Below are positions 697 through 8,908 of a DNA stretch of 64,000 nt, piece by piece (position 1 is the stretch's first letter; the number at the start of each line of letters is the position of its first letter). The notes below the pieces were generated by a model. The model made no database searches. It was not told where the DNA came from and saw only the letters and a program-made list of their open reading frames with translations. The translations under genes and the position numbers were made by a program. The DNA is from Escherichia phage SP22: sequence record LC519489.1. One strand, written 5' to 3'.

Positions 697-2112
697 ATGA
701 GCAAGTTATTTAAACATGCGCACCTTCATGCAGGTCGAACTGAAAATGGTGCTGTAAACCATACTTCATCAATGTCTGCTCTGGTAGACTTCTACAAAGC
801 CGCTGGCTCAAGCCGTAGCAATGTAGAAATCTTACCAGACCTGTTCTACAAAGCTTTGCGTGAGGATGTTGATGTTGCAGTTCGTATTTTGCTTCACATG
901 CGAGATGTACGAGAAGGTATGGGTGAGCGTAAAGCCTTCAGAACTGTTTTACTTCAAGCAATCGAAGATAAAGTTTTAGAGCCTACACAGGTTCTTCGTA
1001 TTATGGATAAGATTGCAGAACTTGGTCGTTTTGATGACTTCAAAATCTTCGTAGGTACTCGTTTTGAGACAGATGCCTTCAAACATTTAGAAGCAGCATT
1101 ACTAGACCCTGAAACAGCAGGTTTAGCAGCCAAGTGGTTACCACGAGTAAAACCACGACACAAACAGTTTGTAAAACGTTTCTGCAAGTTTGCTAACTTA
1201 AGTGAGAAAGAGTACCGCACACTGTTGTCTGCACTTTCTGATACGGTTGAGCAAAAAATCTCTGCTAATGAGTTCGGTAAGATTGACTACAGCAAGATTC
1301 CTTCACTCGCTGCTGCACGTTACCAAAAACTCTTTAACCGTAAAGATGGAGAACGCTACAAAGCTTACATTGAGTCCTTATCAAAAGGTGAGACTAAGAT
1401 TAACGCTGGTGCTGTTTACCCATACGATGTGATTAAATCTATCAAGTATGGTAATGCAGATGTTGCTAATGAGCAGTGGAAAGCACTACCAAACTGGATG
1501 GCAGAGGGTGAAAACATCTTGTGTATGACTGATGTCTCAAGCTCGATGTCTTGGGTAAATCTTGGTTCAATCACTGCTCTTGATATTGGTGTATCTCTTG
1601 CCTTGTATGTAGCAGAACGCAACACAGGATGCTTTAAGGACGAGTTAATGGTCTATTCAACAAACCCTCATTTCATTGAACTGAGTGGTGATTTGAAAAA
1701 CCGTCATCGTCAGGTGATGCGTCATGTTGAATATGGCTCAACTAACTTACAAGCAGCTTTTGACCGTATTCTTGAGACAGGTAAGAGAAACAACTTGACT
1801 CAGAAAGATATGCCAAGTAAGCTTATCATCTTCTCTGATATGGAGTTCAATCAGGTTGATGGTGCAAATGGTCGTACAAACTTTGAAGAAATTCGCAGTA
1901 AGTACAAAAAAGCTGGATATGAGATGCCACAACTGGTATTCTGGTACTTAGCAAACCGTAATGGTACTTGCGAAGTGTCTGTTAAGGATAACGGTGTAGC
2001 AATGGTATCAGGGTTCTCTCCAGCCACTTTAAAAGCTCTGCTTGGTGGTGAGAAGTTTGACCCAATCAGCGTAATGCTCAAAGCAGTAATGATTGACCGT
2101 TACATCTGGTAA
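697..2112 (+). CDS. vWA-domain protein with alpha-helical N-terminal region (DUF2828/TROVE-like)
   Basis: MIDAS-type DVSSSMS motif and LIIFSDMEF strand in C-terminal half; RDVREGMGER motif N-terminal; 471 aa. Confidence 0.5.
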   Translation: MSKLFKHAHLHAGRTENGAVNHTSSMSALVDFYKAAGSSRSNVEILPDLFYKALREDVDVAVRILLHMRDVREGMGERKAFRTVLLQAIEDKVLEPTQVLRIMDKIAELGRFDDFKIFVGTRFETDAFKHLEAALLDPETAGLAAKWLPRVKPRHKQFVKRFCKFANLSEKEYRTLLSALSDTVEQKISANEFGKIDYSKIPSLAAARYQKLFNRKDGERYKAYIESLSKGETKINAGAVYPYDVIKSIKYGNADVANEQWKALPNWMAEGENILCMTDVSSSMSWVNLGSITALDIGVSLALYVAERNTGCFKDELMVYSTNPHFIELSGDLKNRHRQVMRHVEYGSTNLQAAFDRILETGKRNNLTQKDMPSKLIIFSDMEFNQVDGANGRTNFEEIRSKYKKAGYEMPQLVFWYLANRNGTCEVSVKDNGVAMVSGFSPATLKALLGGEKFDPISVMLKAVMIDRYIW

Positions 2113-2130
2113 AAAGTTTTAAAAAGGGTA

Positions 2131-2159
2131 TTGACAATGTGTTTAATACCCTTTAATAT
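2131..2159 (+). promoter_or_regulatory. Sigma70-like promoter TTGACA-N17-TAATAT heading the tRNA array, embedded in hairpin AGGGTATT/AATACCCT (2124-2151)
   Basis: Hexamers and 17-nt spacing read directly; flanking 8-bp inverted repeat. Confidence 0.4.
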
Positions 2160-2382
2160 GTTCTACATAGAAACGAAATGAGAGCTTTTCTAAGATACTG
2201 AAAAATATTTTAAAAAAGTTCTTGACAACTACTAAAAAATAATGTTAAAGTGGTTACATAGAGTTTGAAAATGACAGTACTGACCGGAACATCGAAAGAT
2301 GGGTACTGCGCCGGGGTTTTACACCCTCCCAGCCTGAGAGCGGGATAACCAAAGGAAAGACCGAATTTATTAAAAAGTTTAT

Positions 2383-2459
2383 CTCTGTTTAGCTCAGCTT
2401 GGTAGAGCGTTCCGTTTGGGGCGGTAAGGCCGGAGGTTCAAGTCCTCCAACAGAGACCA
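2383..2459 (+). tRNA. tRNA-Pro(TGG)
   Basis: Acceptor ctctgtt/aacagag, D-arm AGCTCAGCTTGGTAGAGC, anticodon loop TTTGGGG, T-loop TTCAAGT, CCA encoded. Confidence 0.7.
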
Positions 2460-2466
2460 AATTAAT

Positions 2467-2544
2467 GTTCCAGTAGACAAAATGGTAAAGTCACCACTCT
2501 TTCAAAGTGGATATTTGAGGGTTCAAATCCCTTCTGGAACGCCA
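2467..2544 (+). tRNA. tRNA-Glu(TTC)
   Basis: Acceptor gttccag/ctggaac, anticodon stem ccact/agtgg, loop CTTTCAA, T-loop TTCAAAT, CCA encoded. Confidence 0.7.
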
Positions 2545-2635
2545 GTTTTGACAGAAGACCAATTACAGCAAACTTAATCTTATTCATCTGAAGGTAAATC
2601 GGACAAAGAAGAGATTTGGTTTGGTCATTAAGAAT

Positions 2636-2712
2636 TGCGGGTATAGAGAAAGGGCGTCTCACATGTCTCATTAGCATGGTATCGGCAGGTTCGACTCCTG
2701 CACCCGCCTCCA
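2636..2712 (+). tRNA. tRNA-Met(CAT) type, with U1-C72 mismatch or extra nucleotide before the D-stem
   Basis: Anticodon stem catgt/gcatg, loop CTCATTA, D-stem gaga/tctc, T-arm gcagg-TTCGACT-cctgc, CCA encoded; acceptor register ambiguous. Confidence 0.6.
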
Positions 2713-2789
2713 ATTTTGCAGAAGACCGTATTCAGCAACAAAATACTTTTTGCGGATAAAAGAAAAAACACGGTCTGGCAATGTATTAA

Positions 2790-2866
2790 GGTTAGGAAGC
2801 ACATAAGGTATGTGCGGTCGCCTGTTAAGCGAATGGCACAGGGTTCGAATCCCTGACTAACCGCCA
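2790..2866 (+). tRNA. tRNA-Asn(GTT)
   Basis: Acceptor ggttagg/actaacc, anticodon loop CTGTTAA, T-arm caggg-TTCGAAT-ccctg, CCA encoded. Confidence 0.7.
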
Positions 2867-2935
2867 AATTTAGGAGAGAAGCGATTGCTCACCGATTTGT
2901 AAGGTGCAAGTCCTTAGCCTGAATAGAAATTAAAT

Positions 2936-3023
2936 GTGTCGTTATCCCGTAGATGGTAGCGGTGGGGACTGTAAATCCCTTGTCATTGAGACTCGGTAGG
3001 TTCGACTCCTACACGGCACACCA
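2936..3023 (+). tRNA. tRNA-Tyr(GTA), type II (long variable arm)
   Basis: Acceptor gtgtcgt/acggcac, anticodon stem gggga/tccct, loop CTGTAAA, about 15-nt variable arm, T-loop TTCGACT, CCA encoded. Confidence 0.65.
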
Positions 3024-3029
3024 AATAAA

Positions 3030-3106
3030 GGTTATGTAGTTTAACTGGTTAAAATACTCCCCTGTCACGGGAGATGATGAGGGTTCAAATCCCTTCGTAA
3101 CCGCCA
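3030..3106 (+). tRNA. tRNA-Asp(GTC)
   Basis: Acceptor ggttatg/cgtaacc, D-stem gttt/aaat, anticodon stem ctccc/gggag, loop CTGTCAC, T-loop TTCAAAT, CCA encoded. Confidence 0.75.
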
Positions 3107-3318
3107 AATTATAATAAGTATTTCAAAATGATGTTTTGAGAGGGCTATTTAGCCCCTCCCTTAAAGAGTTCTTACGAGTATTCTTTAAAGGAGCAGAAGA
3201 CCAAATTCAGCAAGTACGTATGAAATTTTCAAGCCAATTTAATTTTGAAAAAATTTAAAACTTGGTCTGGCTCAACAAATTTACAGAAGACCGTTTACAG
3301 CAAACTTTAAACAATCTA

Positions 3319-3392
3319 TTTCTCCGGTAAAGAAAAGGCGAAGGTTCGATTCCTTCACTCGGCAGATGTCGAGTTGGTGTAATGGTAGCACT
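3319..3392 (+). tRNA. Circularly permuted tRNA-Thr(GGT)-like locus: 3' portion (anticodon arm, T-arm, acceptor 3' strand; 3319-3364) lies upstream of 5' portion (acceptor 5' strand, D-arm; 3368-3392)
   Basis: Anticodon arm tttct-CCGGTAA-agaaa, T-arm gaagg-TTCGATT-ccttc, 3' strand actcggc, linker, 5' strand gtcgagt (7/7 pairs incl. one G-U), D-arm gtgt-AATGGTA-gcac; no partner halves in the conventional order nearby. Confidence 0.35.
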
Positions 3393-3564
3393 TAAGATGA
3401 TAAACAACGGTCTGGTAATTATCTTTGTAGATAAGTTATTAAGCTTACCTGTGAGTATGCGACCACAAAGGGTGAAATGGTAAATTCTAGATTTAAACCC
3501 AACAATGCACATCGCTACAGACCTTAAGCAAGTCTGGGTAGCTTATCTACAAAGATAATTTAAT

Positions 3565-3640
3565 GGAAGTGTAGCAGAATGGTGATGCGGCAGACTTTTA
3601 ATCTGACAGGCGATGGGTTCGAATCCCTCCACTTCTACCA
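3565..3640 (+). tRNA. tRNA-Lys(TTT)
   Basis: Acceptor ggaagtg/cacttct, anticodon loop CTTTTAA, T-loop TTCGAAT, CCA encoded; T-stem has a bulge (gatggg/ccctc), shared with the Lys(CTT) paralogue. Confidence 0.65.
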
Positions 3641-3644
3641 ATAT

Positions 3645-3721
3645 GGTTCAGTCGCAGATAAGGTAATGCAGGGGTTTCATAAGCCCTATGAATGTGGGTT
3701 CGATTCCCATCTGAACCTCCA
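3645..3721 (+). tRNA. tRNA-Met(CAT) type (elongator Met or Ile2 not distinguishable)
   Basis: Acceptor ggttcag/ctgaacc, anticodon stem ggggt/gccct, loop TTCATAA, T-arm gtggg-TTCGATT-cccat, CCA encoded. Confidence 0.7.
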
Positions 3722-3722
3722 A

Positions 3723-3798
3723 GCTGGTATAGTTAAGAAGGTTATAACACTCCCCTGATAAGGGAACATCGGTGGTTCGATTCCACCTACCAGTACCA
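3723..3798 (+). tRNA. tRNA-Ile(GAT)
   Basis: Acceptor gctggta/taccagt, D-stem gtta/taac, anticodon loop CTGATAA, T-arm ggtgg-TTCGATT-ccacc, CCA encoded. Confidence 0.75.
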
Positions 3799-3813
3799 AT
3801 TTCAATAAAGTTG

Positions 3814-3842
3814 TTGACATTGAGATGTGACTACTTTATAGT
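3814..3842 (+). promoter_or_regulatory. Sigma70-like promoter TTGACA-N17-TATAGT inside the tRNA array
   Basis: Hexamers and spacing read directly; followed by about 290 nt with no tRNA or ORF. Confidence 0.5.
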
Positions 3843-4136
3843 AACTGAAAATGATTCAGCATATGTATAATTCAAACACCAATACATGAGCGTTAGACGT
3901 AACACAATGTGGGGAAATTTGTTGTACATATTCTGAATAGTTTTCGTTGCGTAGCGTCTATTTTGCAAATTTAAAATAAATGCAAACGACAATGTTTTTC
4001 TGGCAGTAGCTTGATAGGCTAAACACCAGTGAGGTCTTCCAATCCCTCATCAAAGAATTTGGCGTACTCGCCCACGGTATGATTAATAAGGTGGGCATCT
4101 TTAAGGGCTTTCTAAGAGAGTCTTTAAAGATAATTA

Positions 4137-4218
4137 CGGGGCGTATCTCAGCGGTCTTCTAAACCGCCGTTAACCGAGTAAGTGGAGTATGCGGGTTCGA
4201 GTCCTGCCGCCTCGACCA
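4137..4218 (+). tRNA. Atypical tRNA-like gene, anticodon TCT (Arg), no recognisable D-arm and a 23-nt extra region; possible pseudo-tRNA
   Basis: Acceptor cggggcg/cgcctcg, perfect hairpin gcggt-CTTCTAA-accgc, T-arm gcggg-TTCGAGT-cctgc, CCA encoded; only 7 nt between acceptor and anticodon stem. Confidence 0.35.
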
Positions 4219-4232
4219 ATTTTGGAGAAATC

Positions 4233-4580
4233 ATGAAAACTTGTATTAGGTGCAAACTTAGCAAGGATGAAAATGATTTCTACATGAAAGATGGTAAGAG
4301 AACTCATTCATACTGTAAAAAGTGTGTTAATGAGCAAACCATAGAAAGACAAAGAGCACTTAAACTTTCAGCTATTGAGTACAAAGGTGGGGTTTGTCAT
4401 GATTGTGGTAAAAGGTATCATCCAGCAGTGTATGACTTCCATCATTTGAATCCTTCAGAGAAAGATTTTAACATTGGTCATAGAAAAAGTCTGAAGTTCT
4501 CTCAAGAACTAAAAGATGAACTTGACAAATGTGTTTTGCTATGTTCAAATTGCCATAGGGTAAGACATGCAAAGTATTAG
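4233..4580 (+). CDS. HNH homing endonuclease
   Basis: HNH motifs (YDFHHLNPSEKDFNIGH ... LLCSNCHRVRH); start placed at ATG after GGAG; upstream extension in the ORF track overlaps the tRNA-like gene. Confidence 0.7.
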   Translation: MKTCIRCKLSKDENDFYMKDGKRTHSYCKKCVNEQTIERQRALKLSAIEYKGGVCHDCGKRYHPAVYDFHHLNPSEKDFNIGHRKSLKFSQELKDELDKCVLLCSNCHRVRHAKY

Positions 4581-4717
4581 TTAGCAGATTGCTTAGACGA
4601 CCTTATCGGGTCTCCGTGTAAGGAGGTGGTCTGTATCTCATGTTTTCCAGAACATGTAAATAATCTGAGAAGGGGCTTTACAGTGTTGCGAAAATACGGT
4701 AAGCTTCGAATTACAAT

Positions 4718-4800
4718 ATGGGACGATGTTAAGACTCTAAGGCATGAGCAACGGCCTCCAAAACCGTTTCAAAGGGGTTCAACTCCTCCGTCCCATGCCA
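4718..4800 (+). tRNA. tRNA-Trp(CCA)-like with a 7-nt insertion between acceptor and D-arm
   Basis: Acceptor atgggac/gtcccat (7/7), D-arm ctc-TAAGGCAT-gag, anticodon loop CTCCAAA, T-loop TTCAACT, CCA encoded; would complete the 20-amino-acid set. Confidence 0.45.
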
Positions 4801-4813
4801 AAGTCTTATTAGG

Positions 4814-4901
4814 GGTAGGTAGCGGCTAATGGCAGCCAAACAGTCTTGAAAACTGTTGCCACTGTAGAGATACGGTGAGGGTTCGACTCCTTTACTTACC
4901 G
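4814..4901 (+). tRNA. tRNA-Ser(TGA), type II
   Basis: Acceptor ggtaggt/acttacc, D-arm ggc-TAATGGCA-gcc, anticodon stem acagt/actgt, loop CTTGAAA, long variable arm, T-loop TTCGACT; CCA not encoded. Confidence 0.65.
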
Positions 4902-5057
4902 CCTAATAAGATTTATACCGTCCATGCTTGCTCGCATTTTCGGTTTATCCTCGTGTATTGGTTGTACACACTGATAAAGCACCTAGTAGGTGTCACGGAG
5001 AAGAGATAATATCAAGCTCTCCAAAGGTTCTAGTCACCGGATTAAACAAGACTATGC

Positions 5058-5079
5058 AAAGACCAAATTAGGTCTTTTT
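5058..5079 (+). terminator. Weak rho-independent terminator-like hairpin (AAAGACC/GGTCTTT + T-run)
   Basis: Inverted repeat and T-tract read directly; AT-rich stem. Confidence 0.3.
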
Positions 5080-5171
5080 AGAGGGCTTCTAAGGTTATTA
5101 CAGCTTGTTGTGGAACCTTGTTGCTTAGGTTCTTAGAAGTTCTCTAAAAAGATTTAATGGGAGATTGACAC

Positions 5172-5624
5172 ATGGCACGTAGCAGTTTGACTAAAGATAT
5201 TCTTGAACCTTTAGTAAAGGATTCAGTATCATTCAGAGAAGTACTTATTAAGCTTGGGAGAAAACCAGCAGGTGGTTCTCAGTCACATCTAAAGCGTGTT
5301 ATAGAGAAGTTTGAAATAGACACTTCTCATTTCCTCGGACAAAAGGCTGGTAAGGTTAAAACTGTACCAAAAAGAAAGCCTGAAGAAATACTAATTCTGC
5401 GTGAATCTGGTGAAAGAGCTAGGTCTTCACAACTAAGAAGAGCTTTAATAGCCTCTGGTGTCGAATACAAATGCTCTAAATGTGGTCAGTTACCGTATTG
5501 GTTGGGTAACCCTCTAACTCTTGATGTTGACCACATTAACGAGAACTGGTTAGATGATAGAAAAGAGAATCTTCGGTTCTTGTGTCCAAATTGCCACAGT
5601 CAATTCTCAAGACATTTGATTTAA
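5172..5624 (+). CDS. HNH homing endonuclease
   Basis: HNH motif LDVDHINENWLDDRKENLRFLCPNCH; GGGAG RBS upstream. Confidence 0.7.
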   Translation: MARSSLTKDILEPLVKDSVSFREVLIKLGRKPAGGSQSHLKRVIEKFEIDTSHFLGQKAGKVKTVPKRKPEEILILRESGERARSSQLRRALIASGVEYKCSKCGQLPYWLGNPLTLDVDHINENWLDDRKENLRFLCPNCHSQFSRHLI

Positions 5625-5625
5625 T

Positions 5626-5702
5626 GCACCTATAGCCCAACTGGTAGAGGCAGCAGACTTAGAATCTGCTCAGTGTGAGTTCGAATCTCTCTAGGTGTAC
5701 CA
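5626..5702 (+). tRNA. tRNA-Leu(TAG) by anticodon, type I length (short variable arm)
   Basis: Acceptor gcaccta/taggtgt, anticodon stem gcaga/tctgc, loop CTTAGAA, 5-nt variable region, T-loop TTCGAAT, CCA encoded. Confidence 0.6.
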
Positions 5703-5709
5703 AATTAAT

Positions 5710-5785
5710 GCAGGTGTAGCAAAATGGTTATGCGGCTGACTCTTAATCAGTAAGACGATGGGTTCAATTCCCTCCACCTGTACCA
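5710..5785 (+). tRNA. tRNA-Lys(CTT)
   Basis: Acceptor gcaggtg/cacctgt, anticodon stem ctga/tcag, loop CTCTTAA, T-loop TTCAATT, CCA encoded. Confidence 0.65.
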
Positions 5786-5791
5786 AACATT

Positions 5792-5867
5792 GGGGATGTA
5801 GTTTACATGGTTAAAACATAAGTTTTGCAAACTTAAGTACAGGGTTCAATTCCCTGCTTCTCCACCA
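5792..5867 (+). tRNA. tRNA-Ala(TGC)
   Basis: G3-U70 wobble pair present (Ala identity element), D-stem gttt/aaac, anticodon stem taagt/actta, loop TTTGCAA, T-arm caggg-TTCAATT-ccctg, CCA encoded. Confidence 0.75.
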
Positions 5868-5873
5868 ATTAGT

Positions 5874-5948
5874 GCATCCATAGTTTAAACGGGAAAATTA
5901 CAGTCTTCCAAACTGAGGTTGAGGGTTCGATTCCCTCTGGATGCTCCA
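5874..5948 (+). tRNA. tRNA-Gly(TCC)
   Basis: Acceptor gcatcca/tggatgc, anticodon loop CTTCCAA, T-arm gaggg-TTCGATT-ccctc, CCA encoded. Confidence 0.75.
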
Positions 5949-5962
5949 AATTAAGGTGTGAT

Positions 5963-6376
5963 ATGAAAATATGTAGTACTTGCAGAATACCAAAAGATGA
6001 AAGCTTATTCCATAAGAATAAGAACAAGAAAGATGGTCTTCAAAGTCAATGCAAAGACTGTGCAAGACTTCGTGATGCAAAGAGTTATCAAGCAAATGAT
6101 AAAAGGAAAGAGGCTATCAAAAGCACTCGTAACTTCAAGAGGGAGTATAATAAAACTCTAGCTAGAAGGTACAAAGCTTTATGCAAATGTCATATATGTG
6201 GTGAGAAAGAACCAGCTGCACTGGATTTACACCATACAGACCCTTCCCAGAAAGATTTGAATCCTGCATCACTTTATTCATACTCCACAAAAAGATTAAA
6301 AGATGAAATCAGAAAGTGTATCGTCTTGTGTGCTAACTGTCACAGAAAAGTACACGCTGGTATCATACAAGTTTAA
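5963..6376 (+). CDS. HNH homing endonuclease
   Basis: HNH motifs LDLHHTDPSQKDLNPA ... VLCANCHRKVH; Cys-rich N-terminus. Confidence 0.7.
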   Translation: MKICSTCRIPKDESLFHKNKNKKDGLQSQCKDCARLRDAKSYQANDKRKEAIKSTRNFKREYNKTLARRYKALCKCHICGEKEPAALDLHHTDPSQKDLNPASLYSYSTKRLKDEIRKCIVLCANCHRKVHAGIIQV

Positions 6377-6377
6377 T

Positions 6378-6454
6378 GCTGCTTTCGTATAATTGGCTAT
6401 TACACATCCCTTGTAAGGATGGAAATGCAGGTTCGAGTCCTGTGAGCAGCACCA
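6378..6454 (+). tRNA. tRNA-Thr(TGT)
   Basis: Acceptor gctgctt/gagcagc, anticodon stem catcc/ggatg, loop CTTGTAA, T-arm gcagg-TTCGAGT-cctgt, CCA encoded. Confidence 0.75.
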
Positions 6455-6550
6455 ATTTAGAGGTCAAGTGAAAGACCGCTTTGAGTCAACTGAAGACCGT
6501 AACAAATCCCACGGAGTTGAGTTAGCGGCACAACTTCAGACCTCTTTCAT

Positions 6551-6625
6551 ACTCGCTTAGTTTATATGGTAAAACATCACCCTTACAAGATGAAGAAAAA
6601 GGTTCAAGTCCTTTAGTGAGTACCA
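6551..6625 (+). tRNA. tRNA-Val(TAC)
   Basis: Acceptor actcgct/agtgagt, D-arm gttt-ATATGGTA-aaac, anticodon loop CTTACAA, T-arm aaagg-TTCAAGT-ccttt, CCA encoded. Confidence 0.7.
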
Positions 6626-6626
6626 T

Positions 6627-6704
6627 GTTCCAGTATCCCAATTGGCAGAGGATGCAAGCTCAAACCTTGTACTAGTGACGGTTCGAATCCGTCTTGGAAC
6701 ACCA
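6627..6704 (+). tRNA. tRNA-Leu(CAA) by anticodon, short variable arm
   Basis: Acceptor gttccag/ttggaac, anticodon stem gcaag/cttgt, loop CTCAAAC, 6-nt variable region, T-arm gacgg-TTCGAAT-ccgtc, CCA encoded. Confidence 0.6.
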
Positions 6705-6709
6705 ATTTT

Positions 6710-6785
6710 GCAGGATTAGTTCAAATGGATAGAGCAACAGTCTACGAAGCTGTTAATAGGGGTTCGAATCCCTTATCCTGCGCCA
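6710..6785 (+). tRNA. tRNA-Arg(ACG)
   Basis: Acceptor gcaggat/atcctgc, D-arm gttc-AAATGGATA-gagc, anticodon loop CTACGAA, T-loop TTCGAAT, CCA encoded. Confidence 0.75.
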
Positions 6786-6804
6786 ATTTAAAGAGGCTAT
6801 TTAG

Positions 6805-7362
6805 ATGAGATATTTGAAGTATGCTTCATGGATTTTCTTAGCTTTGTTAGAACCATTTGCAGCAATCTTAGCAGTTATCTTAGCACCTTTCGTAGTCCCA
6901 TTCTACAGTGAGAAGAAAGGACACTTACCTTTCGGCTTCAGATGGATGGAGACATATGACAACCCAATTGATGGTGATAAAGGGCATGTCGAACGATGGG
7001 CTAAGATTAGAAAGATTGGCAAGCTTGGTGTCTATATGCAGAGAGTCGGTTGGCTCTGGAGAAACAAAGCTTATAACTTCTCTTACCATGTGTTAGGAAG
7101 AGATGTAAAAGATGTTACTAAGTGGAAAGGCAATATCAACGTAAGTTCTAACCCTGAAGATAATCAGACAGGTTATCTCCTAATGTGGAACAGCAATGCT
7201 TGGGGATTATTCGCTTTTATCCCATCAATTAAAGTCTTTGGTAAACAATTTTACTGGAGAATTTATATTGGGTGGAAGCTAAAAAGTGTTGTCCCAGAAG
7301 AAAGAGCATTCTCAAGGGAAAGAGTTATGTTGGCATTCTTTATTCATCCACTAAGAAAGTAA
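6805..7362 (+). CDS. Hypothetical membrane protein (N-terminal hydrophobic segment, Trp-rich)
   Basis: ORF track; AGAGG RBS upstream; no motif recognised. Confidence 0.5.
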   Translation: MRYLKYASWIFLALLEPFAAILAVILAPFVVPFYSEKKGHLPFGFRWMETYDNPIDGDKGHVERWAKIRKIGKLGVYMQRVGWLWRNKAYNFSYHVLGRDVKDVTKWKGNINVSSNPEDNQTGYLLMWNSNAWGLFAFIPSIKVFGKQFYWRIYIGWKLKSVVPEERAFSRERVMLAFFIHPLRK

Positions 7363-7370
7363 AGATTTAA

Positions 7371-7446
7371 AGGGGATTAGTTTACAAGGTTAAAACCTCG
7401 GTCTTTGAAATCGAAGAAGTTGGTTCAATTCCAACATCCCCCGCCA
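7371..7446 (+). tRNA. tRNA-Gln(TTG)
   Basis: Acceptor aggggat/atccccc with unpaired A1-C72 (weak 1-72 pair is typical of tRNA-Gln), anticodon loop CTTTGAA, T-arm gttgg-TTCAATT-ccaac, CCA encoded. Confidence 0.7.
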
Positions 7447-7448
7447 AT

Positions 7449-7527
7449 GCTCCATTACTCCAATTGGCAGAGAGGCCAGACTTAAAATCTGTGTTATGTA
7501 TCGGTTCGAATCCGATATGGAGTACCA
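7449..7527 (+). tRNA. tRNA-Leu(TAA) by anticodon, short variable arm
   Basis: Acceptor gctccat/atggagt, anticodon stem caga/tctg, loop CTTAAAA, about 8-nt variable region, T-arm atcgg-TTCGAAT-ccgat, CCA encoded. Confidence 0.6.
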
Positions 7528-7532
7528 AATTT

Positions 7533-7608
7533 AGCGGTATAGCATAACTGGCAATGCAGCAGTCTCTGAAGCTGTCTTATTAAGGTTCAAATCCTTATGC
7601 CGCTGCCA
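7533..7608 (+). tRNA. tRNA-Gln(CTG)
   Basis: Acceptor agcggta/tgccgct (A1-U72), anticodon loop CTCTGAA, T-arm taagg-TTCAAAT-cctta, CCA encoded. Confidence 0.7.
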
Positions 7609-7639
7609 CTTCTAAGGGTTCTTACGAGAGTCCTTAAAT

Positions 7640-7715
7640 GTGGCCTTATCATAAATGGTAATGACCCATGCTGTGAACATGGTCTATACGGGTTCAAATC
7701 CCGTAGGTCACCCCA
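7640..7715 (+). tRNA. tRNA-His(GTG)
   Basis: Acceptor gtggcct/aggtcac, D-arm tcat-AAATGGTA-atga, anticodon stem ccatg/catgg, loop CTGTGAA, T-arm acggg-TTCAAAT-cccgt, CCA encoded; no G at -1. Confidence 0.75.
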
Positions 7716-7720
7716 ATTTA

Positions 7721-7797
7721 TAGTCCAAGTAGCTTATATGGTTAAAGCGCGTGTCTGAAAAACATGAGAAGAGGGTTCAAATCCCACTGGACTACCA
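7721..7797 (+). tRNA. tRNA-Phe(GAA)
   Basis: Acceptor tagtcca/tggacta, D-arm gctt-ATATGGTTA-aagc, anticodon stem cgtgt/acatg, loop CTGAAAA, T-loop TTCAAAT; two extra nt at the acceptor/D junction. Confidence 0.65.
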
Positions 7798-7813
7798 ATT
7801 TCAAAGGTGCTTA

Positions 7814-8548
7814 ATGAAAGAGATGACAGAACAAGGTAAGGAGATTTTTAATCTCTTAAAAACCGGTAAAGGGTTTTCTAATCCCCTTATTACTGGTGCA
7901 GCAGTTCTCGGTGGAACCGTAGCTGCCTCTACATCACTTGTAAGCTCTATTAGCTCTGTAACAGACCCTACAATAAAAGATAAGCTTGTTGCTGCTGGAC
8001 TTACAACAGTCCTGCTTAACAGCTTTACAACGAGTCTGACAAGCACTACATCAACTACCAAAACACTGACAGATTACGGTCAAAAATCTATTGATGAGTT
8101 TTCATCACGTATGCAGGTAGCAAAAGGCTATTCTAATGTTATGGGTGCAGCAGGAGAGCAGGTTGGTTGTACACCATTTAGTGGTATTATGGGTGTTGCT
8201 ACAGAGTATGGTCAAAAAGCTATTGACACGATTAACAGTGCACTAGATGGTGTTAATGATGTATTAAGTGACTTACAAGATGCTATTGACAAAGGTCTTG
8301 ATACTATTTCTGATTTAGCTAACCAAGCTGTTAGTAAGATTAATGAAGGTATTTCGAAGATTACAGCTTATGCAGATGAAGTTGTGCAGATGATTGAAGA
8401 AGAAGCTGCTCTTATTGCAGAGTACCTTAAAACGAATATCAATGGGTTCTTAGCAGGTATCTTACCAGACTGGTTTGATGATGCTTGTAAAACTGGTGTA
8501 ATTGATACTATTGCAACACCAGAAATGAAGAACGCATTACAGAAATAA
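7814..8548 (+). CDS. Hypothetical protein (Ser/Thr-rich N-terminal region)
   Basis: ORF track entry 7751-8548 overlaps tRNA-Phe; start moved to ATG after AAGGTG. Confidence 0.5.
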   Translation: MKEMTEQGKEIFNLLKTGKGFSNPLITGAAVLGGTVAASTSLVSSISSVTDPTIKDKLVAAGLTTVLLNSFTTSLTSTTSTTKTLTDYGQKSIDEFSSRMQVAKGYSNVMGAAGEQVGCTPFSGIMGVATEYGQKAIDTINSALDGVNDVLSDLQDAIDKGLDTISDLANQAVSKINEGISKITAYADEVVQMIEEEAALIAEYLKTNINGFLAGILPDWFDDACKTGVIDTIATPEMKNALQK

Positions 8549-8549
8549 T

Positions 8550-8642
8550 GGAAGATTAACCCTAAAAGGTAAGGGAGCAGTTTGCTAAACTGCCAGTAGC
8601 TGAGAAATCGGTGTACCAGTTCAAGTCTGGTATCTTCCTCCA
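8550..8642 (+). tRNA. tRNA-Ser(GCT), type II
   Basis: Acceptor ggaagat/atcttcc, D-stem ccc/ggg, anticodon stem gcagt/actgc, loop TTGCTAA, long variable arm, T-arm accag-TTCAAGT-ctggt, CCA encoded. Confidence 0.7.
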
Positions 8643-8646
8643 ATTT

Positions 8647-8722
8647 GAATCCGTGACAGAAATGGTTATGTGCCTGTCTGCAAAACAGGTTTATAAGGGT
8701 TCGAGTCCCTTCGGATTCTCCA
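8647..8722 (+). tRNA. tRNA-Cys(GCA)
   Basis: Acceptor gaatccg/cggattc, anticodon stem cctgt/acagg, loop CTGCAAA, T-arm aaggg-TTCGAGT-ccctt, CCA encoded. Confidence 0.75.
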
Positions 8723-8884
8723 AGTTATTTTACTCTCTCTCAATTAAAATAATAATAATGCCCTGCTATAAGTATTCTTCCTTTCGCTACCGAAGAGTAT
8801 TTTTAGACAGGGCTTTTTTACAGAGTTATACTTTATAAGAAGACTTATACAGTATGTCTCTGACGTACATTGTGGTTTCTCCTT

Positions 8885-8908
8885 GACGGTCTCTGTACCG
8901 TCTTTTTT
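8885..8908 (+). terminator. Rho-independent terminator (GACGGT-ctctgt-ACCGTC + T6) closing the tRNA array
   Basis: Perfect 6-bp stem and T-run read directly; a second GC hairpin + T-run at about 8760-8819. Confidence 0.6.

What the first reader, a model, noticed from the sequence alone, without database searches (positions are those of the whole stretch)
2383..8722. Large tRNA array covering nearly all 20 amino acids, with two CAT-anticodon tRNAs and paralogue pairs
About 27 tRNA or tRNA-like genes lie within 6.3 kb, with anticodons for every amino acid (Trp only via the atypical gene). Several isoacceptor pairs (Lys TTT/CTT, Gln TTG/CTG, Ser TGA/GCT, Arg ACG plus UCU-like, Thr TGT plus the permuted GGT) are present. 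One CAT tRNA (2636-2712) has an unpaired 1-72 position and could be an initiator or Ile2-type tRNA.
Basis: partly seen in the sequence, partly recalled or inferred. Interest (0 to 1): 0.45.

Follow-up and report, generated by a model that had tools for sequence, protein, structure and literature searches.

The report
Phage tRNA island hiding other RNAs
The tRNA cluster is real but already known from Felix O1-type phages; the odd "tRNAs" in its gaps are four Y-RNA-like partners of a neighbouring Ro60-like protein, and there is also a tmRNA-derived coding RNA that lacks a tRNA-like end.

Summary
The window is a Felixounavirus (95-97% identical to Felix O1). ARAGORN finds 25 plus-strand tRNAs at 2383-8722. 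Two conserved atypical tRNA-like genes, Arg-UCU without a D arm and Trp-CCA with an enlarged D region, complete the 20 amino acids. The array is published. Codon use fits it: AGA is 42% of phage Arg codons against 3% in E. coli.

The "permuted Thr" is not a tRNA. It is the tRNA-like core (T arm, closed acceptor hairpin, D arm) of a YrlA-type RNA. It is one of four paralogous modules, each a covarying 6-bp helix followed by an invariant CAGCAA, lying just downstream of a Ro60-fold gene (DUF2828). The same module sits on the gene strand near DUF2828 genes in Mycobacterium, Listeria, Campylobacter, Cronobacter and Klebsiella phages, and in 51 of 75 environmental loci. There are 77 modules on the gene strand, 3 on the opposite strand and 3 in shuffles.

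Between tRNA-Ile and Arg-UCU lies a tmRNA-derived RNA. It has a start-less 10-codon tag (ANDNVFLAVA), a stop-codon hairpin and a covarying pseudoknot, but no tRNA-like domain. It is widespread in enterobacterial phages, and its mechanism is unresolved.

The parts
697..2112 (+). Ro60-fold RNA-binding protein gene (Pfam DUF2828 + DUF7788, vWA-like C-terminus), directly upstream of the array
   Evidence: Pfam; PHROG 850 'RNA-binding protein'; AF2 model pLDDT 88.9, pTM 0.88; the top 11 PDB fold matches are all Ro60/Rsr/TROVE, E about 1e-7, TM up to 0.64
2131..2251 (+). two sigma70-like promoter matches (2131-2159, 2222-2251) ahead of the first tRNA
   Evidence: 10 of 12 each; consensus matches only
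2383..2459 (+). tRNA-Pro (TGG)
2467..2544 (+). tRNA-Glu (TTC)
2549..2627 (+). Y-like RNA module 1: outer helix UGAC/GUCA, inner helix GACCAA/UUGGUU, CAGCAA
2636..2712 (+). CAT-1 tRNA: U1xC72 mismatch, fMet-like acceptor, U37; identity unresolved
   Evidence: not found by Rfam; conserved, with a compensatory T-stem change in Moogle and Sf14
2716..2781 (+). Y-like RNA module 2: UUGC/GCAA, GACCGU/ACGGUC, CAGCAA
2790..2866 (+). tRNA-Asn (GTT)
2936..3023 (+). tRNA-Tyr (GTA)
   Evidence: Rfam only tRNA-Sec at 29.6 bits, below gathering
3030..3106 (+). tRNA-Asp (GTC)
3191..3273 (+). Y-like RNA module 3: GAGC/GCUC, GACCAA/UUGGUC, CAGCAA
3281..3418 (+). Y-like RNA module 4, YrlA-type: closing helix + CAGCAA, V-like hairpin, T arm (3340-3356), closed acceptor hairpin, D arm.
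   Evidence: 14 of 19 consensus pairs keep pairing after changes on both sides; topology as YrlA (PMC4201824)
3426..3560 (+). unassigned structured RNA with a 21-bp closing stem
   Evidence: z = -4.3
3565..3640 (+). tRNA-Lys (TTT)
3645..3721 (+). CAT-2 tRNA (paired 1-72; elongator Met by default)
3723..3798 (+). tRNA-Ile (GAT)
3814..3842 (+). strongest promoter match in the region (TTGACA-17-TATAGT), ahead of the tmRNA-like RNA
   Evidence: the same promoter abuts the RNA in Moogle and Sf14
3939..4136 (+). tmRNA-derived coding RNA without a tRNA-like domain. 5' AGUUUUCGU motif; tag ORF 3982-4011 (ANDNVFLAVA); stops 4012-4017 in a hairpin 4000-4029; hairpin 4029-4050 whose loop CCAA (4039-4042) pairs with UUGG (4059-4062) as a pseudoknot; hairpin 4070-4096 with a conserved UGAUUAAUAA loop.
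4137..4218 (+). atypical tRNA-Arg (UCU): D arm replaced by 4 nt, 20-nt variable insert, encoded CCA
   Evidence: anticodon stem covaries in KpS8 and Ep030; a canonical tRNA-Arg(TCT) occupies the same slot in Moogle and Sf14; AGA is 42% of Arg codons
4233..4580 (+). HNH homing endonuclease
4718..4800 (+). atypical tRNA-Trp-like (CCA anticodon, G73, enlarged D region)
   Evidence: compensatory changes against Moogle and Sf14 in the D-region hairpin and T stem
4814..4903 (+). tRNA-Ser (TGA), no encoded CCA
5172..5624 (+). HNH homing endonuclease (no HNH gene annotated at this position in Felix O1)
5626..5702 (+). tRNA-Leu (TAG)
5710..5785 (+). tRNA-Lys (CTT)
5792..5867 (+). tRNA-Ala (TGC)
5874..5948 (+). 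tRNA-Gly (TCC)
5963..6376 (+). HNH homing endonuclease
6378..6454 (+). tRNA-Thr (TGT)
6551..6625 (+). tRNA-Val (TAC)
6627..6704 (+). tRNA-Leu (CAA)
6710..6785 (+). tRNA-Arg (ACG)
6805..7362 (+). DUF7338 protein gene inside the array
7371..7446 (+). tRNA-Gln (TTG)
7449..7527 (+). tRNA-Leu (TAA)
7533..7608 (+). tRNA-Gln (CTG)
7640..7715 (+). tRNA-His (GTG)
7722..7797 (+). tRNA-Phe (GAA)
7814..8548 (+). DUF7217 protein gene inside the array
8550..8642 (+). tRNA-Ser (GCT)
8647..8722 (+). tRNA-Cys (GCA)

Best explanation
The region 2100-8900 is the non-coding RNA island of a Felix O1-like myovirus. It is read rightward from sigma70-type promoters and is presumably cut into individual RNAs by host tRNA-processing enzymes (inferred). 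It has four layers. (1) There are 25 canonical tRNAs plus two conserved but structurally deviant ones: Arg-UCU without a D arm, and Trp-CCA. Together they give a near self-sufficient decoding set tuned to the AT-rich phage codon usage. This makes late translation independent of the host tRNA pool. (2) There are four small Y-RNA-like RNAs. Each is closed by a covarying helix followed by an invariant single-stranded CAGCAA, and one carries a YrlA-type tRNA-like domain. These are the RNA partners of the Ro60-fold protein encoded just upstream. By analogy with Ro60-Y RNA particles they would gate the protein ring or tether it to another factor. The protein's orthologue in phage Bas63 counters the Ppl defence system (reported elsewhere). 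(3) One tmRNA-derived RNA supplies a start-less reading frame for the tag AN(D/E)xx(F/Y)LAVA. How ribosomes reach it without a tRNA-like domain is not known. (4) Three HNH homing endonuclease genes move about within the array. Shown here: the genes, the structures and their covariation, the protein fold, the codon usage and the co-occurrence. Inferred: RNA-protein binding, processing, aminoacylation and translation of the tag.
For: Identity: 95-97% identity to Felix O1 and relatives over 12 kb. tRNAs; the array is published (Felix O1 22 tRNAs, abstract of PMC3185647; Sf14 26 tRNAs for 19 amino acids, PMC12482277). Codon usage, 63 phage ORFs against 24 E. coli genes: AGA 15x, CUA 3.0x, ACA 2.9x, UUA 2.5x, CCA 2.5x, UCA 2.1x, GCA 1.8x, GUA 1.7x, AAG 1.5x. 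Ro60 fold. Y-like modules: exactly 4 in the array of the window, Felix O1, Moogle and Sf14, none in 50 shuffles of the window. With a looser rule, 5 of 79 CAGCAA sites in the whole window have a partner helix, and 4 of those are the modules. Further modules: 5 directly after the DUF2828 gene of the unrelated Klebsiella phage KP13-26; 3 in Mycobacterium phage Gabriela, 3 in Listeria LMTA-57, 2 in Campylobacter F341, 1 in Cronobacter S13. In these regions 30 of 36 CAGCAA sites have the partner helix against a 3.7% background, with 18 distinct helix sequences. In 75 environmental DUF2828 loci there are 77 modules on the gene strand, 3 on the opposite strand and 3 in shuffles. Erwinia phage Ep030, of the same subfamily, has no DUF2828 gene in the syntenic slot between DUF5681 and the tRNA array and no modules in the 11 kb examined, but keeps the tRNAs. 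The tRNA-like core has the V-T-closed acceptor-D order of YrlA, and 14 of 19 consensus pairs show compensation. A 2024 preprint noted the Ro60 similarity of Bas63 gp130 and guessed that Y RNAs hide among its tRNAs (PMC11482910). tmRNA-like RNA: 103 non-identical copies; variation falls on third codon positions; TAA, TAG and TGA all occur at the same site; -5U/-4A lie upstream as in E. coli; 5 hairpin variants and 3 or more pseudoknot variants all keep pairing; the 5' part aligns with ssrA nt 7-31.
Against: No expression, processing or binding data were available. All RNA boundaries are predictions. The CAGCAA motif differs from the GNCGAA/GGUCCGA motif of established Y RNAs, and Rfam has no matching family. 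About a third of the environmental DUF2828 loci showed no module within 2.5 kb under my strict rule, and GAP32 showed none. The scanner was designed on the Felix-type modules, so the counts for those four phages are partly circular; the strand and shuffle controls are not. Single-sequence folding energies of modules 1-4 are unremarkable (z from -1.1 to -1.9). The tmRNA-like RNA lacks the feature that makes tmRNA work, and no tRNA-like domain other than the tRNAs exists in the window. The host codon sample is only 24 genes.
Confidence: 0.75

Rival explanations
1. The region is simply a tRNA array. Its main purpose is to replace host tRNAs destroyed by anticodon nucleases such as PrrC, PARIS, retron-linked nucleases or VapC. 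The atypical members are nuclease-resistant tRNA variants.
For: The set is nearly complete. It includes tRNA-Lys(CTT), for which the Sf14 study found no host counterpart. It includes Lys-UUU and Tyr, which are targets of known nucleases (established knowledge). CAT-1 has an initiator-like acceptor but a different anticodon arm, which is what a VapC-resistant initiator might look like.
Against: The detailed study of Sf14 found no support for nuclease escape (PMC12482277). Bas63 tRNA genes were mostly dispensable on four hosts (PMC11482910). Codon usage alone explains which anticodons are present. This rival does not account for the four CAGCAA modules, three of which have no tRNA-like part.
Confidence: 0.2
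2. The CAGCAA modules are not ligands of the Ro60-like protein. They are processing or punctuation signals for the polycistronic tRNA precursor (for example RNase III or RNase E sites), or decayed tRNA genes.
For: They sit between tRNAs in the Felix-type phages. One contains tRNA-derived arms. Their single-sequence folding energies are modest.
Against: In Mycobacterium phage Gabriela they occur next to the DUF2828 gene with no tRNA called in the 6.4-kb locus; in Listeria LMTA-57 they lie directly upstream of the gene, with only two tRNAs several hundred bases or more away. They are absent from the examined tRNA array of Ep030, which has no DUF2828 gene at the syntenic position. They are strand-specific with respect to the gene in 75 environmental loci, 77 against 3. 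In a KVP40-like Vibrio phage a single module overlaps the start codon of the DUF2828 gene itself.
Confidence: 0.1
3. The tmRNA-like segment is a non-functional relic of captured host ssrA. Alternatively it is an antisense or decoy RNA that blocks host tmRNA or SmpB and is not itself translated.
For: It has no tRNA-like domain. Its invariant 5' GUUUUCGU is complementary to the tag codons ACGAAAAC of E. coli ssrA (sequences).
Against: It is conserved in at least four unrelated phage groups, each copy with its own promoter. The substitution pattern is that of a translated frame: synonymous third positions, three different stop codons at one site, and F/Y and D/E exchanges. A relic would not keep a covarying pseudoknot. 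The decoy variant of this rival is not excluded.
Confidence: 0.2
4. The Arg-UCU (4137-4218) and Trp-like (4718-4800) elements are pseudogenes, so the phage set covers only 19 amino acids and lacks an AGA reader.
For: ARAGORN does not call them. Rfam scores are 31.7 and 23 bits. The Arg element has no D arm.
Against: The odd Arg form is conserved at 83-88% identity in other phage subfamilies, with a covarying anticodon stem and an invariant CUUCUAA loop. AGA is the commonest Arg codon of the phage. The Trp-like element shows compensatory changes in two helices. Both end in CCA.
Confidence: 0.2

Closest known systems
tRNA clusters of Felix O1 and of Mooglevirus Sf14 (PMC3185647; PMC12482277)
   Same: Same genes in the same order at 95-97% (Felix O1) identity; the flanking DUF2828 protein is 84-86% identical in Moogle and Sf14. 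Same flanks: DUF5681 and DUF2828 upstream, terminase downstream.
   Different: HNH genes differ in number and position. The window has about 104 bp extra before tRNA-Pro. Moogle and Sf14 carry a canonical tRNA-Arg(TCT) where the window, Felix O1-type phages and Ep030 carry the form without a D arm. In the records and passages examined here, the Y-like, tmRNA-like and Trp-like elements are not annotated or mentioned.
Bacterial Rsr (Ro60) with YrlA/YrlB Y RNAs, and phage Ro60 with Y-like RNAs (mycobacteriophage ET08; Thermus phage phiLo Yrl1/2; PMC4201824, PMC12135203)
   Same: A Ro60-fold protein gene lies next to several small RNAs on the same strand. Each RNA is closed by a 5'/3' stem with a short conserved motif beside it. 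One RNA per locus carries a tRNA-like domain in the order V - T - closed acceptor - D.
   Different: The protein belongs to the DUF2828 branch, which neither Pfam TROVE nor PDB sequence search recognises. The conserved motif is CAGCAA, three nucleotides 3' of a 6-bp helix, not GNCGAA or CGAA. There are up to five copies per locus. Binding is untested.
tmRNA (SsrA), one-piece and permuted two-piece forms
   Same: Resume codon GCA with no start codon; -5U/-4A context; a 10-codon tag starting AND/ANE and ending in small hydrophobic residues; the stop codon sits in a hairpin loop; a pseudoknot lies downstream; the 5' segment aligns with ssrA nt 7-31.
   Different: There is no acceptor stem, T arm or CCA end, so neither alanylation nor EF-Tu delivery is possible for this RNA alone. 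ARAGORN and Rfam do not call it. The tag ends in LAVA, not ALAA. It is found in phage or prophage DNA only.
Phage T4 tRNA cluster with its two stable RNAs of unknown function, and the T5 tRNA arrays (own knowledge, not checked here)
   Same: Phage tRNA operons that also encode small stable non-tRNA RNAs and homing endonucleases.
   Different: No sequence relationship was tested. T4 has no Ro60-like gene, to my knowledge.
D-arm-lacking mitochondrial tRNAs (own knowledge)
   Same: The Arg-UCU element keeps the acceptor, anticodon and T arms but has only 4 nt where the D arm should be.
   Different: It occurs in a bacterial virus, carries a 20-nt variable insert, and would need to work with bacterial ArgRS, whose recognition normally involves A20 in the D loop.

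Membership tests
canonical tRNA genes | Cloverleaf recognised by independent detectors, 7-nt anticodon loop, acceptor end | tested here: met
   25 genes by ARAGORN; 23 of them pass the Rfam tRNA gathering score; 24 encode CCA
bacterial initiator tRNA (for CAT-1, 2636-2712) | Unpaired 1-72 position | tested here: met
   U1 x C72, conserved in four phages; the E. coli initiator has C1 x A72
bacterial initiator tRNA (for CAT-1, 2636-2712) | Three consecutive G:C pairs (29-31 : 39-41) in the anticodon stem | tested here: not met
   The stem is CAUGU/GCAUG, with one G:C pair; position 37 is U
tRNA-Ile2 (lysidine, reads AUA) | CAU anticodon, TilS determinants, and a need to read AUA | tested here: inconclusive
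   The CAU anticodon is present in both CAT tRNAs. AUA is only 4% of Ile codons, 0.64x the host value. Isotype-specific models were not available.
permuted tRNA genes (3' half upstream of 5' half) | The two halves reconstitute a complete tRNA, including an anticodon arm | tested here: not met
   The outer sequences form the helix + CAGCAA module shared with three RNAs that have no tRNA part. The acceptor is closed by a 4-8 nt loop.
Y RNA / YrlA | Encoded next to a Ro60 orthologue, on the same strand | tested here: met
   The modules start 437 nt after the stop of the Ro60-fold gene. The association is strand-specific in 75 further loci.
Y RNA / YrlA | Stem formed by the 5' and 3' ends | tested here: met
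   A 6-bp helix with 18 distinct sequences in named phages and 43 in environmental loci, always complementary
Y RNA / YrlA | Ro-binding motif GGUCCGA / GNCGAA(N)G near the 5' end | tested here: not met
   The invariant motif is CAGCAA. No Rfam family matches the modules.
Y RNA / YrlA | tRNA-like domain in the order V, T, closed acceptor, D | tested here: met
   Module 4 and counterparts in KP13-26, Gabriela and S13; order as in PMC4201824
Y RNA / YrlA | Physical binding to the Ro60 protein | not testable with these tools
   Needs RIP or EMSA
Ro60 / TROVE proteins | HEAT-repeat ring followed by a vWA domain | tested here: met
   AF2 model with N-terminal helices and a C-terminal alpha/beta domain. 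Full-length Foldseek matches to 1YVR, 2I91, 2NVO, 9KOP and 9L5Y.
Ro60 / TROVE proteins | Match to the Pfam TROVE model or sequence similarity to solved Ro60 | tested here: not met
   Only DUF2828 and DUF7788 match at E up to 10. phmmer finds no PDB sequence at E up to 1.
tmRNA | tRNA-like domain: acceptor stem with G3:U70, T arm, CCA | tested here: not met
   None in the RNA itself and no spare one in the window. The adjacent 4137-4218 element is a tRNA-Arg: it is replaced by a canonical tRNA-Arg in Moogle and Sf14, and it has G3-C70 in Ep030.
tmRNA | Start-less tag reading frame with resume codon and upstream frame-setting nucleotides | tested here: met
   GCA follows AUAAAU. There is no in-frame start after the stop at 3952. 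Substitution pattern is that of coding sequence, with three kinds of stop codon.
tmRNA | Stop codon in the helix-5 loop, and pseudoknots | tested here: met
   Hairpin 4000-4029. One pseudoknot with CCAA/UUGG, CCGA/UCGG and CCAG/CUGG variants. Only one pseudoknot was shown.
tmRNA | SmpB- and ribosome-dependent tagging | not testable with these tools
   Needs proteomics and genetics

The most novel reading that the evidence does not exclude
The tmRNA-derived RNA at 3939-4136 and its roughly 100 relatives in enterobacterial phages form a new class: a stand-alone 'coding piece' that has no tRNA-like domain yet is decoded by trans-translation. It would borrow the host tmRNA-SmpB, or another tRNA-like RNA, in trans. 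One possible route is docking of its invariant 5' GUUUUCGU on the complementary ACGAAAAC of the host tag frame. Rescued ribosomes in infected cells would then add a phage-specified tag, AANDxx(F/Y)LAVA. By comparison with published work on the E. coli tag (own knowledge, not tested here), this keeps the residues that bind SspB and changes the ClpX degron.
Probability: 0.3. Interest if true: 0.85.

Novelty: new variant of a known kind. Interest (0 to 1): 0.6.

Why it matters
The tRNA array itself adds nothing new.

The Ro60-like protein of this phage group has a reported phenotype: it counters the Ppl defence system. Its RNA partners were only guessed at. The four RNAs named here, and a motif rule that finds their counterparts in actinobacterial, firmicute, campylobacterial and proteobacterial phages, make that system directly testable. 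They also extend the Ro60-Y RNA partnership to a large, unrecognised protein branch: DUF2828 is found in more than 700 phage records.

A tmRNA-type tag frame under coding selection, but without any tRNA-like domain, challenges the accepted requirement for a covalently linked tRNA-like and mRNA-like unit in trans-translation. If it is translated, phages are reprogramming ribosome rescue.

Annotation pipelines miss all of these elements. They also miss a D-arm-less tRNA-Arg that reads the phage's most used Arg codon.

Tried and rejected
1. I first read 4137-4218 as the tRNA-like domain of a tmRNA (C1-G72, G2-C71, G3:U70, A73, next to the tag frame). I rejected this because Moogle and Sf14 have a canonical tRNA-Arg(TCT) in the same slot, Ep030 has G3-C70 and keeps the element 650 bp upstream of the tag RNA, and KpS8 has it without any tag RNA.

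2. Permuted tRNA-Thr: rejected (see the membership test).

3. Ile2 assignment from codon usage: AUA is rare.

4. Rfam at gathering and at permissive thresholds gave no Y RNA, YrlA or tmRNA call. It gave only weak sub-threshold tmRNA fragments.

5. RNAduplex of whole phage RNAs against ssrA produced meaningless full-length duplexes.

6. The IMG/VR scan with CAGAAGAC(N6)CAGCAA returned mostly single chance matches and only Felix-type true hits. The first composite pattern I tried had the wrong spacing.

7. The scan of bacterial genomes for the tag-hairpin pattern returned mostly chance matches. Only 3 of 120 were real, all in Enterobacterales and phage-like.

8. I searched for a hidden acceptor partner around the orphan T arms of Kuttervirus SE14. 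The 7-nt complements occur at chance frequency, so I drew no conclusion.

9. Sequence search of the protein against the PDB found nothing. Only the fold comparison worked.

10. Literature searches for DUF2828, and for phage tmRNA-like RNAs, found no prior description of either RNA class in the held library.

Full report
**What the window is.** The first 12 kb match Salmonella phage Felix O1 and more than 200 relatives at 95-99% identity. The window is therefore a Felixounavirus (Ounavirinae) that infects E. coli or Salmonella. The gene order is DUF5681 protein, DUF2828 protein, the RNA region, then large terminase and portal.

**The observation.**
- ARAGORN finds 25 tRNA genes between 2383 and 8722, all on the + strand, and none elsewhere in the 64 kb.
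- Rfam's tRNA model confirms 23 of them at its gathering score and adds 4137-4215.
- 24 of the 25 genes encode their CCA end, and spacers inside the sub-clusters are 1-7 nt.
- The count and the coordinates are right. The array is also already published: Felix O1 has 22 annotated tRNAs (PMC3185647, abstract; record). The relative Sf14 has 26 tRNAs for 19 amino acids, analysed in detail in 2025 (PMC12482277).

**Codon usage.** I compared 63 long ORFs of the window (17,393 codons) with 24 E. coli K-12 genes.
- AGA is 42% of phage Arg codons against 3% in the host sample, a 15-fold difference.
- CUA, ACA, UUA, CCA, UCA, GCA, GUA and AAG are 1.5-3 times enriched.
- These are the codons read by the phage's U34 tRNAs and by tRNA-Lys(CUU).
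- This supports the classical supply explanation. It agrees with the Sf14 study, which favoured late-gene translation on the phage's own tRNA pool and argued against nuclease escape.
- AUA is rare: 4% of Ile codons, below the host value. Codon usage therefore gives no reason to call either CAT tRNA an Ile2 tRNA.

**The two CAT tRNAs.**
- CAT-1 (2636-2712) is not recognised by the Rfam tRNA model at all.
- It is nevertheless conserved in Felix O1, Moogle and Sf14, with a compensatory C-G to U-A change in the T stem.
- Its U1 x C72 mismatch is conserved.
- Its anticodon stem has only one G:C pair and position 37 is U.
- It fails one defining initiator feature and meets another, so its identity stays open.
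- CAT-2 (3645-3721) has a paired 1-72 position and looks like an elongator.

**The atypical Arg and Trp elements.**
- Rfam aligns 4137-4215 as a tRNA whose 15-position D arm is replaced by 4 nt and whose variable region holds a 20-nt insert.
- The same odd form occurs at 83-88% identity in Vequintavirinae (KpS8) and in Erwinia phage Ep030. The anticodon stem covaries (GCGGU/ACCGC, ACGGG/CCCGU, CCCGU/ACGGG) and the loop CUUCUAA is invariant.
- In Moogle and Sf14 the same slot holds a canonical tRNA-Arg(TCT).
- Because AGA is the phage's main Arg codon, I take the element to be a working, D-arm-less tRNA-Arg.
- The Trp-like element has acceptor AUGGGAC/GUCCCAU, G73, an encoded CCA and the loop CUCCAAA. 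Compared with Moogle and Sf14 it shows compensatory changes in a D-region hairpin (CUC/GAG to CAC/GUG) and in the T stem (G-C to U-A). It is under structural selection.

**The 'permuted Thr' is part of a Y-RNA-like family.**
- Four paralogous modules lie at 2549-2627, 2716-2781, 3191-3273 and 3281-3418.
- Each reads: outer 4-bp helix, internal loop (5' AGAA, 3' UG), 6-bp inner helix, three nucleotides, CAGCAA, a variable insert of 37-109 nt, then the two 3' strands.
- Both helices covary between paralogues and orthologues: UGAC/GUCA, UUGC/GCAA to UUAC/GUAA, GAGC/GCUC; GACCAA/UUGGUC against GACCGU/ACGGUC.
- Module 4 carries a V-like hairpin, a T arm, a hairpin in the acceptor position and a D arm.
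- That hairpin changes completely between phages while staying paired: ACUCGGC-AGAU-GUCGAGU; ACCCUUC-GCCAAACA-GAAGGGU; ACACG-UUACGG-CGUGU.
- This is the order described for YrlA, the tRNA-like Y RNA of bacteria (PMC4201824).
- A rule-based scanner finds exactly these four in the array of the window, Felix O1, Moogle and Sf14, and none in 50 shuffles of the window.

**The upstream protein has the Ro60 fold.**
- The ORF 697-2112 matches only DUF2828 and DUF7788 in Pfam. It matches nothing in the PDB by sequence.
- An AlphaFold model built from 41 homologues is confident (pLDDT 88.9, pTM 0.88).
- Its 11 best PDB matches are all Ro60/Rsr/TROVE structures over the full length: Xenopus, Deinococcus and Thermus phage phiLo, with E about 1e-7 and TM up to 0.64.
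- A 2024 preprint on the Felixounavirus Bas63 saw the same similarity for gp130 and showed that it counters the Ppl defence system. The authors guessed that 'some tRNA genes ... are possibly Y RNAs' without identifying any (PMC11482910).
- Phage Ro60 proteins with Y-like RNAs are known for TROVE-annotated proteins (PMC4201824; PMC12135203). Those RNAs carry a CGAA-type motif.

**The module travels with the protein.** tblastn finds the protein in 709 phage records from many host phyla.
- Klebsiella phage KP13-26 (47% identical protein): five modules directly follow the gene, and two contain a T arm, closed acceptor and D arm.
- Mycobacterium phage Gabriela: three modules follow the 'Ro-like' gene, one of them tRNA-like.
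- Listeria LMTA-57 has three and Campylobacter F341 has two, in both cases just upstream of the gene.
- Cronobacter S13 has one tRNA-like module.
- In a KVP40-like Vibrio phage a single module overlaps the gene's own start codon.
- CAGCAA is invariant throughout, while the helix takes 18 different sequences. 30 of 36 CAGCAA sites in these regions have the partner helix, against a 3.7% background.
- RNAalifold on eight tRNA-like modules from six phages recovers the closing helix, the T arm and the closed acceptor. 14 of 19 pairs show changes on both sides.
- In 75 environmental DUF2828 loci (39-47% identical proteins), 51 have at least one module within 2.5 kb. There are 77 modules on the gene strand, 3 on the opposite strand and 3 in shuffled loci, with 43 distinct helices.
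- Erwinia phage Ep030, in the same subfamily, goes straight from DUF5681 to the tRNAs. It has no DUF2828 gene at that position and no module in the 11 kb examined.
- I conclude that these RNAs are the partners of the Ro60-like protein. Binding itself remains an inference.

**A tmRNA-derived RNA between tRNA-Ile and tRNA-Arg.**
- A distant BLAST of the gap DNA hit unannotated DNA in unrelated phages.
- Downstream of the best promoter match in the region (3814-3842) lies the sequence AUAAAU GCA AAC GAC AAU GUU UUU CUG GCA GUA GCU UGA UAG. This is a 10-codon frame for ANDNVFLAVA. No in-frame start codon follows the preceding stop. The E. coli tag is ANDENYALAA.
- Copies occur in Felix-type and Moogle-type phages, Ep030, 47-kb Klebsiella and Escherichia siphophages, SSU5-like plasmid phages and Kuttervirus.
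- Among 103 non-identical copies, codons 1-3, 9 and 10 vary only at the third position. Codon 6 alternates between Phe and Tyr. The terminator is TAA, TAG or TGA at the same site. Positions -5 and -4 are U (sometimes C) and A, as in E. coli.
- The stop lies in a hairpin loop. The next hairpin has five variants that all pair. Its loop pairs with a downstream segment in at least three compensating versions (CCAA/UUGG, CCGA/UCGG, CCAG/CUGG), forming a pseudoknot.
- The 5' part aligns with ssrA nucleotides 7-31.
- There is no acceptor stem, T arm or CCA end in this RNA. ARAGORN and Rfam call no tmRNA. No spare tRNA-like domain exists anywhere in the window.
- In bacterial genomes the element was found only in Enterobacterales, in phage-like DNA.
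- I found no description of it in the literature I could search.
- The evidence says the frame is translated. How a ribosome enters it is unexplained.
- One lead is that the invariant 5' GUUUUCGU is complementary to ACGAAAAC in the host tag frame. This may be no more than a by-product of homology.

**Other content.**
- Three HNH endonuclease genes lie in the array (4233-4580, 5172-5624, 5963-6376). Felix O1 shares two of these positions and has a different third one, as expected for homing elements.
- Two protein genes of unknown function (DUF7338, DUF7217) also lie inside the array.
- Several further structured segments remain unassigned.

**Verdict.** It is wrong about the permuted Thr and unsupported for Ile2. 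The value of the locus lies in what fills the gaps. The first item is a Y-RNA-like family tied to a divergent Ro60 protein, which is a new variant of a known kind. The second is a tmRNA-derived coding RNA without a tRNA-like domain, which could be something new if it is used as the sequence pattern suggests.

Noticed in passing
window 2260-2380: About 104 bp between the Ro60-like gene and tRNA-Pro are absent from Felix O1, where tRNA-Pro starts 166 nt after the ORF instead of 270 nt. There is a weak sub-threshold Rfam sraL match, and the fold is unremarkable (z = -0.5).
   Followed up: partly
window 3426-3560: Strongly structured segment with a 21-bp closing stem (z = -4.3), between Y-like module 4 and tRNA-Lys. 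No family match.
   Followed up: partly
window 6455-6550: Long imperfect hairpin between tRNA-Thr and tRNA-Val (z = -3.3). It contains CUGAAGACCGUAAC, which resembles the 5' strand of the Y-like modules but lacks CAGCAA. The CUGAAGACCGUAAC segment is also present at the corresponding position in Felix O1, Moogle and Sf14.
   Followed up: no
window 3160-3190, 4100-4133, 7613-7636; L005 1600-1640: Repeated small hairpins of the type AAGGGUUCU-UACG-AGAGUCCUU, with a UACG-type loop, placed before tRNAs. They could be processing or stabilising elements.
   Followed up: no
window 3847-3945: A hairpin of about 100 nt lies between the promoter and the tmRNA-like RNA. Moogle, Sf14 and Ep030 lack it; there the promoter abuts the GUUUUCG motif. 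Its 5' GAAAAU pairs with that motif.
   Followed up: partly
window 4581-4717 and 4904-5170: Non-coding stretches flanking the Trp-like gene and tRNA-Ser are conserved in Moogle and Sf14. 5064-5163 forms a long hairpin ahead of the HNH gene.
   Followed up: no
L249 2466-2505 (Vibrio phage TCU-VP03-AIR1): A single helix-CAGCAA module lies in the 5' UTR of the DUF2828 gene. Its 3' strand (AAUGUC) contains the start codon, which suggests that the Ro60-like protein represses its own translation.
   Followed up: no
L250 4395-4637 (Cronobacter phage S13): Two 'tRNAs' of 121 and 113 nt pass the Rfam tRNA score but carry long inserts of tens of nucleotides, containing UUCAGCAC/UUCAGCAU, between the D arm and the T arm. 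They lie just downstream of the DUF2828 gene. ARAGORN does not call them.
   Followed up: no
L007 11120-11188 and L001 about 4470-4540: Moogle and Felix O1 have an extra 3' hairpin on the tmRNA-like RNA (AAAGAGCA...GGGGCUUGGCUUAAAUGCAA...UGCUCUUU). In 47-kb siphophages the same sequence block lies 5' of the RNA, and the helix CAGUGCUCUU/AAGAGCAUUG closes the whole RNA. This looks like a circular permutation.
   Followed up: partly
L002 840-1520 (Klebsiella phage VLCpiS13c): About 700 bp of unannotated DNA after the tmRNA-like RNA contains repeated CACAACAGGUAAGAGCAUU and CAGUGCUCUU blocks. This suggests a tandem series of further structured RNAs.
   Followed up: no
L003 490-525, 935-965, 1010-1045 (Kuttervirus SE14): Three T-arm-like elements that ARAGORN does not call flank the tmRNA-like RNA. 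One ends ...GGCUCCA, like the 3' end of tmRNA. GAGAACGAAA at 179-188 is a perfect complement of the 5' end of that RNA.
   Followed up: partly
L253 928-1479 (Listeria phage LMTA-57): Sub-threshold but strong match to ROOL RNA (88.5 bits, gathering score 99.1) about 1 kb upstream of the DUF2828 gene. An RtcB-type 'tRNA-splicing ligase' lies about 1.3 kb downstream. In GAP32 an RNA ligase gene lies directly upstream of DUF2828.
   Followed up: no
window 4233-4580, 5172-5624, 5963-6376 against L001: HNH endonuclease genes differ between the window and Felix O1. Felix O1 has one annotated between tRNA-Lys and tRNA-Ile and has no HNH annotated before tRNA-Leu(TAG), where it has an unnamed 198-bp ORF. 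This is presence/absence polymorphism typical of homing.
   Followed up: partly
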